64,000 nucleotides of DNA, taken from assembly GCA_021788015.1 (NCBI GenBank), contig JAJYLD010000002.1:26739-90738 (forward strand), written 5' to 3'. The DNA is from a bacterium (GTDB taxonomy: Bacteria; Patescibacteriota; Patescibacteriia; Patescibacteriales; JAKAJF01). Below are positions 14,683-19,316 of this stretch, in pieces. The notes under the pieces were generated by a model, which saw nothing but the letters and a program-made list of their open reading frames with translations, had not been told where the DNA came from and made no database searches. Each line of letters opens with the position of its first letter. The first letter of the stretch is position 1. Made by a program: the position numbers and the translations under genes.

Positions 14683-14876
14683 ATGGGTTTTGGGGCGGAA
14701 TTGCCCGTCTCGCCTTAAGCTCGCCGAGGCGGAAGCGTCAGAGTGAGAGACGAAAATTCCAATCAACGTGATAGCGAATGGGAGCCCCCAAAATTTCCCC
14801 GCCCGCATCGCTACGCGAAGCATTGTGGGCAGGTTGCCTACTTTTTGGTTACAAAAAAGGGCCTAACGCAGCGTTA
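14683..14876. repeat. REP/MITE-like ~190-bp intergenic element, copy 1 (full length); terminal hairpin CCTACTTTTTGGTTACAAAAAAGGG abuts the recQ stop
   Basis: Shares GGGGCGGAATTG...GTGATAGCGAATGGGAGCCCCCAAAATTTCCCCGCCCGCATCGCTACGCGAAGCATTG...TTGGTTACAAAAA..GCGCAGCG with copies at 21528, 24168, 25016, 31043. Confidence 0.7.
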
Positions 14877-17018
14877 TTTCATACTCGCCATCACCAACCT
14901 GATTTCATCCCAACCATAATTATCCCCCAATTCCTTTTTCACCGGCGCCAACCTTCCGATGCCGATTTGTTTGATCGCCCCCCTGATCGCTTTTTCTTTC
15001 TTTGAATCAACGAATTTATTTACATCAACGGCCATTCCTTTTTCTATAAGCCAACATAAATGCTCGACGACTGTGCCCGGTTTCAAATTTCTTATTTGCG
15101 CCATCTCGTCAATCGACATGCCTCTGTTATACAATTCGAAAGTTTCAAGTTGAGTCAGCTTAGTCGCCAATCCGGCTTTTCCGGAAAGATCTTCTTCAAA
15201 TGCGATTACCGGTCTTGCCTCAAAATTATGTCCATGAAATTTTTTTGTATTAGCCGGCATAAATCCACGTCCGGAATTTGCATTTTGGTTCAGTGTGGGC
15301 CCGCGTTCCGGTCCGCGACTGTCCGCGTTGTTGTTGAGGCAGTTATCGCATCTTCCGCATCGTTCAAAATTTTTGTCTCCGAAGTAATCCAAAATAAACG
15401 CTTGGCGGCAGCCGAAATGATAAATATATTCCTCCATATTGTCGAGTTTGCGATAAGCGTTTTTCATTTTTTCTTTGAGCGCGCTAAAATCGATATTAAC
15501 GTCTTTTGCGTCCACCCTTTTTAAAATTCTTATCTCCGTGCCCTTGAACGGCGGCTCGTAATCAATCAAACCGTTTTCGGATAATTTGCGAACAAGGCGC
15601 ATTATGCTTTCTTTTTTTAATTTTAAAATTTCCGCAACCTCGTCAAAATTTCCGCTCCATCCTTTTTCGAGTTCATTGCCGAAGCGATCGAATAACTTCA
15701 CCAAAATTTCTCTTTGGCTTTTGGCGCGGCCCGAAAGCGAATTCAAAATCGAAGCGAAATCTTTTTTTATTTTTACAAAAGCGTTGCCGGTTTTTTCGTG
15801 CGAGCGGGAAATGAATCCTTCTCTTTCCAAAATTTTCAGACTGGTGCCGATCGCCATTTCCGGAACCTGATCGGAAAGCATATCCGCAAGTTCAGCATAC
15901 GTCAAAAGCACGGTATCCGATTCGTAATTTTTTAAAGTTTCATAGATTTCCAAAATTATTTCCGGCGGCGGATTGTCGCCCTTGATAAAAAATTCCTGGA
16001 GATGACGATCGCGGGAATTGTAAAACATGAGACAAAAACTCGGTCTGCCGTCGCGGCCGGCCCGTCCCGCTTCCTGGTAATAGGCTTCAACCGTTCCCGG
16101 CATGTCGTAATGGATGACGAAGCGAATATCTTTTTTATTGATGCCCAATCCGAACGCGTTTGTCGCTATGATCACCTTCACTTTTCCAGTCATGAAATTT
16201 TCCTGGATCCATTTGCGCTCTTCCGGATCCATGCCGGCGTGGTAACTGACTGCCTCAATATTGTTTTCAAGCAAATGATTCAAAAGGGAATCGGCGCGCG
16301 CGCGCGTGCCGACATAGACGATGCCCGTGCCTTGGGGCATGCTTACTATCGCTTCGAGCGCGAGTCGCGGTTTTTGCGAGTCGGCGGCGTGAATGACGCC
16401 GAACTGCAAATTCGGCCGAGCGAAACCGGTAACGACAATTTCGGGATCATTAAGCCCGAGCTGTTTCGCAATATCTTTTTTCACTTCCGGAGTGGCGGTC
16501 GCGGTCAGAGCCAAAACGATCGGATTGCCCAAAAACGAAATCGCATTTTTCAACTTTACGTAGCTCGGCCGAAAATCGTGCCCCCATTGGCTTATGCAAT
16601 GCGCTTCGTCAATCGCGAACAGGCTTACTTTTATATCTTGAAGCGCACGCGCGAATTCGGCGCTATAAAATCTTTCCGGCGCGATGTAAAGCAGCTTGTA
16701 GACGCCGTTTTTCACGTCTTCGATACGTTTCATCGTTTCCGCCTGATTGATTGAAGAATTTATAAACGTCGCCGAAATGCCGATTTTTGTAAGCGAATCG
16801 ACCTGATCTTTCATAAGCGAAATCAAGGGCGAAATCACGATCGTAATTCCGTCCAAAACCAAAGCCGGCAATTGGTAACAAAGCGATTTGCCCCCGCCCG
16901 TCGGCATGATAACAATGGTCGATTTCCCCTGAAGGACATTGTCGATCACTTTTTCCTGGCCGGGACGAAACGAATCATAACCGAAATGTATTTTTAATAA
17001 TTCTAAAATTTGTTGCAT
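14874..17018 (-). CDS. recQ: RecQ-family ATP-dependent DNA helicase with extended C-terminal region
   Basis: DEAHCISQWGHDFRP, zinc-binding CGRCDNC, helicase motifs I-VI. Confidence 0.9.
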   Translation of the reverse strand: MQQILELLKIHFGYDSFRPGQEKVIDNVLQGKSTIVIMPTGGGKSLCYQLPALVLDGITIVISPLISLMKDQVDSLTKIGISATFINSSINQAETMKRIEDVKNGVYKLLYIAPERFYSAEFARALQDIKVSLFAIDEAHCISQWGHDFRPSYVKLKNAISFLGNPIVLALTATATPEVKKDIAKQLGLNDPEIVVTGFARPNLQFGVIHAADSQKPRLALEAIVSMPQGTGIVYVGTRARADSLLNHLLENNIEAVSYHAGMDPEERKWIQENFMTGKVKVIIATNAFGLGINKKDIRFVIHYDMPGTVEAYYQEAGRAGRDGRPSFCLMFYNSRDRHLQEFFIKGDNPPPEIILEIYETLKNYESDTVLLTYAELADMLSDQVPEMAIGTSLKILEREGFISRSHEKTGNAFVKIKKDFASILNSLSGRAKSQREILVKLFDRFGNELEKGWSGNFDEVAEILKLKKESIMRLVRKLSENGLIDYEPPFKGTEIRILKRVDAKDVNIDFSALKEKMKNAYRKLDNMEEYIYHFGCRQAFILDYFGDKNFERCGRCDNCLNNNADSRGPERGPTLNQNANSGRGFMPANTKKFHGHNFEARPVIAFEEDLSGKAGLATKLTQLETFELYNRGMSIDEMAQIRNLKPGTVVEHLCWLIEKGMAVDVNKFVDSKKEKAIRGAIKQIGIGRLAPVKKELGDNYGWDEIRLVMASMK

Positions 17019-17096
17019 GTATGTTTGACAGAAAATTTTTCAAACGCTAAATTAAGATTATCAGACGCGACCTATTCAGTCAAAAGGAGGGCATAC

Positions 17097-17375
17097 ATGG
17101 TTCATTTAACAAATCCTTTTAATTTGAATTTTGAAGAATTCCAAAATTTGAATTGGGAAGGCCTGCTCATACTTTATGTAAAGGCAAGCGGGATGACCAA
17201 TGACCTGGAAATCAAAATCTTTGTGAAACATCCTTCCTGGGATTGGATTTTGATGGCGTTCAGTCCCGGAAACGTAATCGCCGCCGGGCCAAAAGAACAC
17301 AAGCCCACAGACAAAGAGATTTATGATGTAGCGAAAAAAATCGATGCCGCTGTGTTCTTATGCGTTCGAGAATAA
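17097..17375 (+). CDS. Small protein carrying one copy of a novel ~65-aa repeat domain (HPxxxWIIIAxxPGNVIAAGPKEH)
   Basis: Strong SD AAAAGGAGGG 6 nt upstream of ATG at 17097; domain repeated twice more in the next ORF. Confidence 0.6.
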   Translation: MVHLTNPFNLNFEEFQNLNWEGLLILYVKASGMTNDLEIKIFVKHPSWDWILMAFSPGNVIAAGPKEHKPTDKEIYDVAKKIDAAVFLCVRE

Positions 17376-17407
17376 ATACAAACCTGCTCAGAGGAGGATA
17401 ATGACTC

Positions 17408-17974
17408 ATGAATCTTTTTACTTCAAGCCTCGATATCTTGCGAAGCATGGACGAAAGACTGGTTAAAGAAATGCACGACCGGGCCGTAGAAAAAAGCGGC
17501 GAGTTCGTGGATAAATATTTTATAAAGCATCCGCGGACCCACTGGATTATCATCGCGCATAATCCCGGCAACGTGATTGCCGCCGGGCCAAAAGAACATG
17601 AACCCTTCGAAGACGAGCTGGAACTGCTGGCCGCGCAGTTCAATGTTCCCGTTTTTCTTTATTCCCGGACGGACCCGTTCGCCTTAACATTCGCAGATTT
17701 AAAAAAGATGGATGAGGACGAAATTGACGATGTCTTTAGACAGGGTTCGGCAATAAACCGGGAATTCGCGGATGAATATTTCAAAGAGCATCCGCAAATC
17801 GGCTGGATTATAATCGCGCATAAGCCGGAGAATATAATCGCCGCTGGTCCGCTAGAGCATGCGCCCTATTCCAGCGATCTCGATGTCTTGGCGGAACAAT
17901 TGGGTGTCATCGTTTTTGCCTACTCCAGACCTTTTCATTATGACGAGTTAACTGAGGAAATCATTTTTTCTTAA
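17408..17974 (+). CDS. Protein with two tandem copies of the same ~65-aa repeat domain
   Basis: SD GAGGAGGA upstream; repeats KHPRTHWIIIAHNPGNVIAAGPKEHEP and EHPQIGWIIIAHKPENIIAAGPLEHAP each followed by VF.YSRxxPF. Confidence 0.65.
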   Translation: MNLFTSSLDILRSMDERLVKEMHDRAVEKSGEFVDKYFIKHPRTHWIIIAHNPGNVIAAGPKEHEPFEDELELLAAQFNVPVFLYSRTDPFALTFADLKKMDEDEIDDVFRQGSAINREFADEYFKEHPQIGWIIIAHKPENIIAAGPLEHAPYSSDLDVLAEQLGVIVFAYSRPFHYDELTEEIIFS

Positions 17975-17988
17975 ATTGTTCATCTCTA

Positions 17989-18017
17989 TAAAGCTGTTTT
18001 AAGCAGCTTTTTTTATT
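17989..18017 (+). terminator. Rho-independent terminator (AAAGCUGuuuuaAGCAGCUUUUUUUAUUU)
   Basis: Perfect 7-bp stem plus U-run directly after 17974. Confidence 0.65.
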
Positions 18018-18169
18018 TGACTTCATTTCAAATATAATTTAAGGTAAGGGCAAGAACGGAGGAGCTTTTAAATTTTTGCAGCCAAAATTTTCAGATTGCA
18101 GTAAGAATGGTATTTGGCGACAGACTCAAAAGGAGGGCCTCGCCCTTTAAAATTGAAGGAGGAAATGAC

Positions 18170-19282
18170 ATGAAAATTGTTCGGAACAAGGCGAAAGAAA
18201 TCATCATGATCATTCTTTTGCGCTTTTTTTGCGCTCATGTTCATCTCAGAGAAGACGACGAAGAGGATTTGCTCATGACCGATGTTGTTCACTTCAGCGA
18301 TCCTTACGAATACGTTACGGCCATGGGCAATACGAAAAATCCGATTTCAACCGGACCGGAAGCGATCGCGTATAAAAAGAAAAAAATAGAAAAGCACAAA
18401 CCGGGATTCAAGGCGATCCCCACGATCATGCTCACGAACAGCACCACTGTCGAGACAATCAGGAAGGCTCACCGCCTCGGTATTAAGGTCGTAAAGTACA
18501 TGCCCGCGGGAACAACGACGAATACGGAAAAGGGCTATATTCCGCTTTACGATCTTATCCGAACCAAGGGCGATGTGCTTCGCGAAATGCAAAAACGGAA
18601 AATGATCCTCTCGACCCACATGGAACTGGTCAGATTCCCGGGCGCGACAGAGGATATACATTATCTCTATCGGGAAGAGGAAGCAATTCCGTATCTCGAA
18701 GCTCTGATCAAGGTATTTCCGAAGCTAAAGATTATCGTCGAGCATGCCTCGACGAAAAAAATGATTGAGTTCGTCAAGGCCGCTCCGGCTCATGTCTTTG
18801 CCACTCTCACTTTGCAGCATGCCCTCTTCCATAAAGGCTATGTCTTCGACAAAAATCTTAAGGTAAAAGACCCACTTTATCTTTGTCTGCCTTGCCTTAA
18901 GGAAATCGAAGACACGCTCGCCGTGAGAGAAGCGATGGTTTCGGGCAATCCGAAATTCTTCTTCGGAACCGATGACGCGCCGCATCGCCTTTATAAAAAA
19001 ATGGGACCGAAGCCGCCATCCGGCATATCGACGCCTGGCATCGTCGCGATAGCCCTACTTTGCAAAATTTTTGAGGAGGCGAACGCGCTTAAACGTCTTG
19101 AAAATTTTGCAGCCAGATTCGGCGCAAAGGCTTACGGTCTCTCGCTCAAAGGCTGGAAAAAAATGAAAGTCGCGAAAGAGCCCTGGACCGTTGCCGAAAG
19201 TTATAACGACATCGTTCCGCTTATGTCTGGTGAAACGTTAGACTGGCAACTCGTAGGCGAAGTTTTCGACCTGACACATTAA
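18170..19282 (+). CDS. pyrC: Class II (E. coli PyrC-like) dihydroorotase-family amidohydrolase
   Basis: Motifs align with E. coli PyrC: HVHLRED (HLHLRDG), KYMPAGTTTN (KLYPANATTN, carboxylated Lys), LKIIVEHASTK, TLQHALF, LYLCLPCLK, FFGTDDAPH (FLGTDSAPH), GETLDW; SD GGAGGA before ATG at 18170. Confidence 0.75.
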   Translation: MKIVRNKAKEIIMIILLRFFCAHVHLREDDEEDLLMTDVVHFSDPYEYVTAMGNTKNPISTGPEAIAYKKKKIEKHKPGFKAIPTIMLTNSTTVETIRKAHRLGIKVVKYMPAGTTTNTEKGYIPLYDLIRTKGDVLREMQKRKMILSTHMELVRFPGATEDIHYLYREEEAIPYLEALIKVFPKLKIIVEHASTKKMIEFVKAAPAHVFATLTLQHALFHKGYVFDKNLKVKDPLYLCLPCLKEIEDTLAVREAMVSGNPKFFFGTDDAPHRLYKKMGPKPPSGISTPGIVAIALLCKIFEEANALKRLENFAARFGAKAYGLSLKGWKKMKVAKEPWTVAESYNDIVPLMSGETLDWQLVGEVFDLTH

Positions 19283-19287
19283 CATAA

Positions 19288-19316
19288 CCCGCTCGCATGA
19301 GCGGGCTTTTTATTTT
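19288..19316 (+). terminator. Rho-independent terminator after the pyrC-like gene (CCCGCUCGCAUGAGCGGG plus U-run)
   Basis: Perfect 7-bp GC stem plus CTTTTTATTTT. Confidence 0.7.

What the first reader, a model, noticed from the sequence alone, without database searches (positions are those of the whole stretch)
17097..17974. Novel triplicated ~65-aa domain (HPxxxWIIIAxxPGNVIAAGPKEHxP ... VF.YSRxxPF) across two adjacent small proteins
One copy sits in a 92-aa protein and two tandem copies in the next 188-aa protein. Conservation is strong across the three copies, including invariant NVIAAGP and EH. I do not recognise the domain. Its position upstream of the PyrC-like and rSAM genes could mean substrates or partners, for example RiPP-like precursors with repeated cores, or a small enzyme family.
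Basis: seen in the sequence. Interest (0 to 1): 0.6.

Follow-up and report, generated by a model that had tools for sequence, protein, structure and literature searches.

The report
Undescribed small domain, three stand-alone copies
Two adjacent small genes carry three copies of a real, confidently folding, roughly 90-residue protein domain that matches no protein-family or structure library searched; elsewhere it sits inside signalling proteins next to a retrovirus-type protease domain, so it looks like a regulatory or binding module, not a peptide-natural-product precursor.

Summary
ORF1 (17097-17375, 92 aa) has one copy and ORF2 (17408-17974, 188 aa) has two abutting copies of one domain ("X"). 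Pairwise BLASTP E-values are 2e-26 to 1e-16.

X is about 88-90 aa, not about 65. It matches nothing in Pfam, NCBIfam, PHROGs, PADLOC or PDB sequences. An AlphaFold2 model is very confident (pLDDT 95) and has no Foldseek neighbour in PDB or BFVD.

A profile search of 1.84 billion representative proteins found about 70 relatives. Of these, 31 are stand-alone small proteins and 18 are REC-X-retropepsin response regulators. In all three such loci examined, the regulator lies directly after a GAF histidine kinase. The rest are other fusions. ORF2 is the only tandem X-X.

Conserved positions are almost all hydrophobic or structural and the domain is acidic, so X looks like a binding or dimerising module, not an enzyme.

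The RiPP or PyrC/rSAM-partner idea is not supported:
- X1-X2 has its own promoter-like and terminator-like sites.
- Syntenic relatives have recQ directly beside pyrC, with no X genes and no rSAM.
- None of the other X loci examined carries an rSAM.

The actual function is unknown. The window has no REC, kinase or retropepsin gene.

The parts
17025..17053 (+). sigma-70-like promoter match (TTGACA-17-TAAATT) upstream of ORF1
   Evidence: This is a consensus match only: the number of promoter-like sites in the region is not above the shuffle expectation.
17085..17090 (+). Shine-Dalgarno AGGAGG, 6 nt before the ORF1 ATG
   Evidence: read directly from the sequence
17097..17375 (+). ORF1, 92 aa, one X domain (aa 5-91). 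It is the most divergent copy (WILMAF in place of WIIIAH, and it ends ...FLCVRE).
   Evidence: (86 bits against the family HMM)
17392..17397 (+). Shine-Dalgarno AGGAGG, 10 nt before the ORF2 ATG
   Evidence: read directly from the sequence
17408..17680 (+). ORF2 N-terminal X domain (copy 2, aa 1-91)
   Evidence: The AF2 model of this unit has pLDDT 95.4.
17681..17974 (+). ORF2 C-terminal X domain (copy 3, aa 92-177), an 11-aa tail and the stop codon
17990..18017 (+). intrinsic-terminator-like hairpin (9-bp stem AAAGCTGTT/AGCAGCTTT) followed by a T run, 16 nt after the ORF2 stop
   Evidence: (-10.3 kcal/mol, z = -2.5)

Best explanation
ORF1 and ORF2 are real genes in their own two-gene transcription unit. 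They encode three stand-alone copies (1 + a fused 2) of a previously undescribed, rare, roughly 90-residue alpha/beta domain, here called X. Its secondary structure is short helix, long helix, beta-hairpin, helix, strand.

Shown:
- X is a compact, independently folding, mostly acidic module.
- Its conserved positions are almost all structural.
- It is combined modularly with signalling parts. Most often it is the central domain of REC-X-retropepsin response regulators encoded directly after GAF histidine kinases. It also follows other N-terminal domains or membrane anchors, or precedes coiled coils.

Inferred: X is a non-catalytic protein-protein interaction module, probably self-associating. 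Three things point that way. Its fusion partners are obligate or inducible dimers (retropepsin, phosphorylated REC, coiled coil). X genes recur as tandem paralogues. The window's ORF2 is a covalent X-X.

The stand-alone copies in the window would then act in trans as small adaptor or regulator proteins, or possibly as protease targets or decoys. They would not be precursors or enzymes of the neighbouring pyrimidine/rSAM genes. They are a lineage-specific insertion between recQ and pyrC.
For: Real repeat and genes.

Family exists but is rare. There are 72 hits at E<=1e-3 and 40 at E<=1e-10 among 1.84 billion representatives. The word-index search found only the protein itself. A family-specific DNA pattern gave 0 hits in the GTDB species representatives searched, 0 in IMG/VR and 1 true hit in JGI metagenomes.

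Fold: pLDDT 95.4, pTM 0.84.

No known relatives.

Architecture census of 71 X-bearing proteins:
- 31 stand-alone
- 18 REC-X-PR
- 2 other-X-PR
- 3 REC-X-other
- 4 TM-X
- 8 N-extension-X
- 4 X-C-extension
- 1 X-X (the window's ORF2)

Fusion partners. REC scores above the Pfam cutoff in the fusions. The C-terminal domain has an invariant D-T-G. An X+C-terminal model has pLDDT 90.9 and pTM 0.86. All of its top 50 PDB Foldseek hits but one (a plasmepsin at rank 45) are retroviral proteases, Ddi1 RVP or Rickettsia APRc; the top 44 have probability 0.98-1.00. A GAF-HATPase kinase lies directly upstream in 3 of 3 fusion loci, and in L007 a stand-alone X gene precedes that kinase.

Tandem X paralogues also occur in L005.

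Conserved columns are F, L, A, Y, W, I, G, P and V, plus one R, one D and one N. Median pI is 4.9.

Own transcription unit.

Insertion relative to syntenic relatives.

Retropepsins are homodimers with the Asp dyad at the dimer interface: PMC12239564.
Against: - No direct evidence of any interaction, and no multimer model could be run.
- The 64-kb window holds no REC, histidine kinase or retropepsin-like gene. The rest of this genome could not be searched, so a partner in this organism is unproven.
- Stand-alone X genes elsewhere have unrelated neighbours (PolX, groES/EL, pyrG/flagellin, cell-wall genes), so no conserved partner is visible.
Confidence: 0.45

Rival explanations
1. RiPP-like precursors with repeated cores, or substrates of the downstream radical-SAM or PyrC-like enzymes.
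For: The genes lie on the same strand, about 1.4 kb upstream of an rSAM with a CxxxCxxC motif and weak SPASM- or viperin-type hits. The sequence is repeated.
Against: - X is a stably folded 90-aa domain, and it is embedded in multidomain signalling proteins.
- Copies 2 and 3 have no Cys, and the conserved residues are core hydrophobics.
- A terminator-like hairpin follows ORF2. pyrC and rSAM-UPRT have their own terminators or promoter-like sites.
- Syntenic relatives keep recQ-pyrC without X and without the rSAM.
- No rSAM occurs in any other X locus.
- The rSAM has no relatives in the GTDB species representatives searched, so no co-occurrence exists to count.
Confidence: 0.03
2. X is the released product or substrate of a proteolytic two-component pathway. 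The kinase activates REC-X-retropepsin by dimerisation. The protease then cuts the disordered X-protease linker, or free X paralogues, and free X is the signalling output. Genomes such as this one express X directly.
For: - The X-protease linker is the only low-confidence stretch in the fusion model (residues 95-102, pLDDT <50).
- Many stand-alone X proteins end right at that boundary, for example ...RRPIIIE* and ...TRPKIIE*.
- In L007 a stand-alone X gene lies in the same cluster as the kinase and REC-X.
- From general knowledge, not verified in any paper read here: retroviral and Rickettsia retropepsins autoprocess.
Against: The coincidence of C-termini is equally explained by a plain domain boundary. 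No cleavage data exist. No protease gene is in the window.
Confidence: 0.2
3. A small acidic antitoxin, immunity or anti-defence (Acr-like, DNA-mimic) protein of mobile origin.
For: The proteins are small and acidic and are a lineage-specific insertion. ORF2 has a weak AcrIC5 Pfam hit (E=9.4e-4, 19.7 bits). In L010 a Replic_Relax gene lies about 2.6 kb from the fusion gene.
Against: - The AcrIC5 score is below the 27-bit cutoff, and only 1 of 63 family members shows it.
- No PHROG, PADLOC or BFVD match.
- No tblastn hit in 50,697 phage or 72,556 plasmid records, and no pattern hit in IMG/VR.
- No conserved toxin-like neighbour in any locus.
- No composition anomaly or flanking repeats at the insertion.
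Confidence: 0.1
4. A small enzyme or ligand-binding (sensor) domain.
For: E and H are invariant in the three window copies. Modular fusion to signalling domains is also typical of sensor domains.
Against: The H is not conserved in the family. The only polar positions conserved at 60% or more are one R, one D and one N. X lies between REC and the protease, which is a position for output or regulation, not input, and the sensing role in these loci is already filled by the GAF kinase.
Confidence: 0.1

Closest known systems
Response regulators with enzymatic or adaptor outputs (e.g. CheB REC-methylesterase, RssB REC-adaptor for ClpXP). These examples are named from general knowledge.
   Same: X-bearing fusions start with a Pfam-significant REC domain. 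They are encoded directly after a histidine kinase, and a hydrolase domain sits at the C-terminus.
   Different: The output is a retropepsin-type aspartic protease preceded by the undescribed X domain. Three full-text searches found no description of such an architecture. The window itself has only free X, with no REC or kinase.
Ddi1-type and bacterial retropepsin-like proteases (Ddi1 UBL-HDD-RVP; Rickettsia APRc; Pseudomonas RloA/RimB, PMC12239564)
   Same: The partner domain of X has the retropepsin fold and an invariant D-T-G. As in Ddi1 (domain order from general knowledge), a partly helical accessory domain lies directly N-terminal to the protease domain.
   Different: X shows no sequence or Foldseek similarity to anything in PDB, including Ddi1 entries. 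By the paper's title, the Rlo enzymes are secreted. The X fusions have an N-terminal REC domain, which implies a cytoplasmic, REC-controlled protein. X also exists on its own.
rSAM-modified RiPP precursors with repeated core motifs
   Same: Small ORFs with an internally repeated sequence, on the same strand as an rSAM gene.
   Different: X is a folded domain with a conserved hydrophobic core and no Cys-rich or short repeated motif. The transcription units are separate, and X and the rSAM do not co-occur in any other locus or in syntenic relatives.
Pfam DUF5678-type small beta-beta-alpha-beta proteins. This is a lead from memory only.
   Same: A superficially similar 'W-hydrophobic strand, turn, strand, G, helix, strand' pattern.
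   Different: A Pfam scan of all 63 aligned X domains at E<=1 showed no family matched by more than 2 members, and DUF5678 was not among the 25 of 31 matched families listed. X also has an extra N-terminal helical hairpin. No profile-profile test was possible.

Membership tests
Any curated protein family (Pfam-A, NCBIfam, PHROGs, PADLOC) | HMM score above the curated or significance threshold | tested here: not met
   ORF1 has 0 hits. ORF2 has only sub-threshold hits, the best being AcrIC5 at 19.7 bits against a cutoff of 27. When 63 family members were scanned, no family was hit by more than 2 of them.
Any solved structure or viral predicted structure | significant sequence-profile or Foldseek match | tested here: not met
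RiPP precursor of an rSAM maturase | precursor and maturase co-occur and are co-transcribed | tested here: not met
   A terminator-like site follows ORF2, and pyrC, with its own terminator, lies in between. Syntenic relatives and the other X loci lack an rSAM.
RiPP precursor of an rSAM maturase | leader plus short modifiable core (Cys or other target residues), with no need for a stable fold | tested here: not met
   The domain is a confident globular fold. Copies 2 and 3 contain 0 Cys, and the conserved columns are core hydrophobics.
RiPP precursor of an rSAM maturase | post-translational modification or cleavage of the product | not testable with these tools
   This needs mass spectrometry.
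Two-component response regulator system (window locus) | REC domain or histidine kinase encoded with X | tested here: not met
   No REC match in the six-frame translation of the 64-kb window. By contrast, relatives in L006, L007 and L010 meet this feature.
Retropepsin (clan AA) partner domain, in X fusions elsewhere | D-T/S-G active-site motif and retropepsin fold | tested here: met
   D, T and G are invariant in 17 of 17 aligned C-terminal domains. The weak sequence hits are all to pepsins or retropepsins, at the DTG site. The top 50 Foldseek hits are retropepsins, Ddi1 or APRc, apart from one plasmepsin at rank 45; the top 44 have probability 0.98-1.00. No such domain is in the window.
Retropepsin (clan AA) partner domain, in X fusions elsewhere | homodimeric active enzyme | not testable with these tools
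   No multimer prediction or biochemistry was available.
Type II antitoxin or immunity protein | conserved adjacent toxin or effector gene | tested here: not met
   Neighbours differ in every stand-alone locus: recQ/pyrC, PolX, groES, pyrG/flagellin, hypotheticals.

The most novel reading that the evidence does not exclude
X defines a previously unrecognised signalling route: a GAF histidine kinase, then a REC-X-retropepsin response regulator whose output is regulated proteolysis. Free X proteins, like the three copies here, would be its released products, substrates or trans-acting regulators. This would be a proteolytic two-component pathway found mainly in uncultured lineages (Patescibacteria/CPR, KSB1 and others).
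Probability: 0.2. Interest if true: 0.7.

Novelty: new variant of a known kind. Interest (0 to 1): 0.5.

Why it matters
X is an unannotated domain family with a very confident predicted fold and no relative in any library searched, so it is a candidate new family entry.

Its main fusion context is a response regulator whose output is a retropepsin-type protease controlled by a GAF kinase. Three full-text searches of the paper library found no description of this combination. If X gates, targets or is released by that protease, it would add regulated aspartic proteolysis to the repertoire of two-component outputs. It would also give a handle on small orphan proteins of CPR-like genomes.

For this window specifically, the practical result is negative but useful. 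The two genes should not be annotated as RiPP precursors or tied to the pyrC/rSAM/UPRT genes.

Tried and rejected
1. The word-indexed homologue search with ORF2 and with the family profile found only the protein itself, or 8 proteins. The exhaustive HMM search was needed.
A hand-made degenerate DNA pattern gave 0 hits in GTDB representatives, 0 in IMG/VR, and 3 in JGI metagenomes, of which only 1 was real.
3. The rSAM protein has no relatives in GTDB representatives, so the organism could not be named. Cluster look-ups of ten window proteins returned no names. The closest named PyrC homologue is a Moranbacteria dihydroorotase at 39% identity.
5. The AcrIC5, SpbK, QrcA and T2SS-L weak hits were rejected as composition or chance matches. 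They are sub-threshold and are not shared by family members.
6. P0061, a 1317-aa GH10 repeat protein, was rejected as a false positive of the profile search.
7. The N- and C-terminal extensions of ten other X fusions have no Pfam match.
8. Mobile-element origin found no support: no phage or plasmid tblastn hits, no flanking repeats and no GC anomaly.
9. The DUF5678 resemblance recalled from memory found no support in Pfam scans.

Full report
**1. Observation**

The window carries two same-strand ORFs exactly where the finding places them. ORF1 is 17097-17375 (92 aa). ORF2 is 17408-17974 (188 aa). Each is preceded by AGGAGG at a proper distance.

ORF1 holds one copy and ORF2 two abutting copies of one sequence unit. 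The three copies align with 20 invariant columns.
- Copy 2 vs copy 3: 48% identity, BLASTP E=2e-26.
- Copy 1 vs copies 2 and 3: 35% and 30% identity, E=8e-18 and 1e-16.
- A 116-nt DNA core repeats at 62-72% identity.

The repeat is therefore real and old. Three corrections apply. The unit is about 88-90 aa because it includes an N-terminal helical part. 'NVIAAGP' is really N[VI]IAAGP. The 'EH' histidine is conserved only within this locus.

**2. Is it a known domain?**

No.
- Pfam-A, NCBIfam, PHROGs and PADLOC give nothing for ORF1. For ORF2 they give only sub-threshold hits, the best being AcrIC5 at 19.7 bits against a cutoff of 27.
- Scanning 63 family members individually against Pfam gave no family shared by more than two of them.
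- Profile searches against all PDB sequences gave nothing.

An AlphaFold2 model of copy 2, built on a 63-sequence family alignment, is very confident (mean pLDDT 95.4, pTM 0.84). Its elements are helix 8-13, long helix 16-40, beta-hairpin 46-49/56-60, helix 68-78 and strand 83-86.

**3. The family**

The word-indexed search found only the protein itself. An exhaustive profile search of 1.84 billion representatives found 72 proteins at E<=1e-3, of which 40 were at E<=1e-10. One, a GH10 repeat protein, is a false positive.

The family is very rare. A family-specific DNA pattern had 0 matches in 185,579 GTDB species representatives, 0 in IMG/VR, and one true match in JGI metagenomes. There were no tblastn hits in phage or plasmid collections.

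Named sources are a Candidatus Absconditabacterales MAG, a Patescibacteria MAG and a candidate division KSB1 MAG.

The architecture census of 71 proteins is:
- 31 stand-alone X
- 18 REC-X-PR
- 2 other-N-terminus-X-PR
- 3 REC-X with a different C-terminus or a coiled coil
- 4 membrane-anchored X
- 8 with other N-terminal extensions
- 4 with C-terminal extensions
- 1 tandem X-X, which is the window's ORF2

**4. The fusion partner**

The N-terminal domain of the fusions is a Pfam-significant receiver domain.

The C-terminal domain of about 145 aa has invariant D-T-G and a 'GRN(L/I)L' motif. Its only weak sequence hits are pepsins and retropepsins, aligned at the DTG site.

A model of X plus this domain is confident (pLDDT 90.9, pTM 0.86). 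Only the linker (residues 95-102) falls below pLDDT 50. All of its top 50 Foldseek PDB hits but one (a plasmepsin at rank 45) are retroviral proteases, Ddi1 RVP domains or Rickettsia APRc; the top 44 have probability 0.98-1.00. It is therefore a retropepsin-like aspartic protease.

In all three fusion loci examined, a GAF-HATPase histidine kinase lies immediately upstream (L006, L007, L010). In L007 a stand-alone X gene precedes that kinase. L005 carries three tandem X paralogue genes. In P0005 the REC domain is replaced by a domain that is a separate upstream gene in L006.

I found no paper describing a REC-retropepsin regulator.

**5. The window's locus**

The six-frame translation of the 64-kb window contains exactly three X domains. 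It contains no retropepsin-like domain and no REC domain.

ORF1-ORF2 is bracketed by a promoter-like site (17025-17053) and a terminator-like hairpin with a T run (17990-18017; -10.3 kcal/mol, z=-2.5). The PyrC-like gene has its own terminator (19288-19305). The rSAM-UPRT pair has its own promoter-like site (19315-19343) and terminator (21411-21428). These are consensus matches, not proof.

The PyrC-like protein is a divergent class-II dihydroorotase. It scores 242 bits against TIGR00856, below the cutoff of 293, and homologues are annotated dihydroorotase.

Two relatives with 50% identical PyrC keep the surrounding synteny (L011/L012: purM-purL-...-recQ | pyrC ... folD-glyA-HD-Elp3-bactofilin; L013 shows only the recQ-pyrC pair). 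In both, recQ and pyrC are direct divergent neighbours, with gaps of 198 and 88 bp. They have no X genes and no rSAM-UPRT. L011 has a DHODH gene there instead.

The X pair is therefore a lineage-specific insertion, not a conserved partner of pyrC or the rSAM. Each window copy's nearest relative is another window copy, which fits local duplication. Copy 1 is the most divergent.

**6. Interpretation**

Family-wide conservation falls on F, L, A, Y, W, I, G, P and V positions, plus one Arg, one Asp and one Asn. Copies 2 and 3 have no Cys. Median pI is 4.9. That is the signature of a structural or binding module, not an enzyme or a modified peptide.

X is modular. It sits next to partners that are obligate or inducible dimers: retropepsins (homodimers with the Asp dyad at the interface, PMC12239564), phosphorylated REC, and coiled coils. 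X genes also recur as tandem paralogues, and here as a covalent X-X.

My best explanation (confidence about 0.45) is a non-catalytic, probably self-associating protein-interaction or regulatory module. Its stand-alone copies would act in trans. The folding, modularity and associations are shown. Dimerisation and trans-action are inferred.

A more novel variant (about 0.2) is that X is released from, or cleaved by, the REC-X-retropepsin regulator. Many stand-alone X proteins end exactly at the X/linker boundary (...RP.IIE*), which is also the only disordered stretch in the fusion model. A plain domain boundary explains the same facts.

The antitoxin/Acr-like, enzyme/sensor and RiPP readings are disfavoured, for the reasons listed under the rival explanations.

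**7. Limits**

- The rest of its genome could not be scanned.
- Stand-alone X genes elsewhere have unrelated neighbours, so no conserved partner is visible by context.

**8. Verdict**

This is a real, rare, undescribed domain family, with an informative but indirect link to a two-component/retropepsin architecture that was not found described in the literature searches. The suggested link to the PyrC-like and rSAM genes is not supported. Interest is 0.5.

Noticed in passing
L006:2403-3533, L010:5260-6393, L007:11258-11953 (related loci, not in the window): These are response regulators with the architecture REC - X - retropepsin-like aspartic protease (invariant D-T-G). Each is encoded directly after a GAF-HATPase histidine kinase. 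Three full-text searches found no description of such a regulator.
   Followed up: partly
window 19413-20594 and 20594-21403: A radical-SAM protein (CxxxCxxC, Cys-rich C-terminus, with only weak SPASM and viperin-type hits of about 29 bits) overlaps by one base the start of a UPRTase-like gene (PF14681, 99 bits). The pair has its own promoter-like and terminator-like sites, is absent from syntenic relatives, and has no relatives among GTDB species representatives. It may be a nucleobase- or nucleotide-modifying pair.
   Followed up: partly
window 14874-17018 (recQ, -) and 18107-19282 (pyrC-like, +); L011:7685-11146; L013:1948-5319: The divergent recQ/pyrC adjacency is conserved in two other uncultured lineages (PyrC 50% identical). 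The window's PyrC-like protein scores below the NCBIfam TIGR00856 cutoff (242 vs 293 bits), and its called ORF probably starts at the internal ATG at 18167.
   Followed up: partly
L005:748-2191: Three X paralogue genes lie in tandem on a 2.5-kb metagenomic contig. One has a roughly 90-aa N-terminal extension that is shared with P0050.
   Followed up: no
L017:5050-7300 (KSB1 MAG) and window 17097-19282: A stand-alone X gene follows pyrG (CTP synthase) in a KSB1 MAG, and the window's X genes precede pyrC. That makes two of about ten contexts next to pyrimidine-biosynthesis genes. This is probably coincidence, but it was not tested statistically.
   Followed up: no
L006:1878-2378 and P0005 residues 1-170: An uncharacterised 166-aa protein is encoded just upstream of a REC-X-protease gene. 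In P0005 the homologous sequence replaces REC as the N-terminal domain of an X-protease fusion. The protein has no Pfam or PADLOC match.
   Followed up: no
window 25222-26808 (-): An Elp3-like radical-SAM/acetyltransferase gene lies in a nucleotide and one-carbon metabolism neighbourhood (purL, purN, folD, glyA, HD hydrolase). The arrangement is conserved in relative L011.
   Followed up: no
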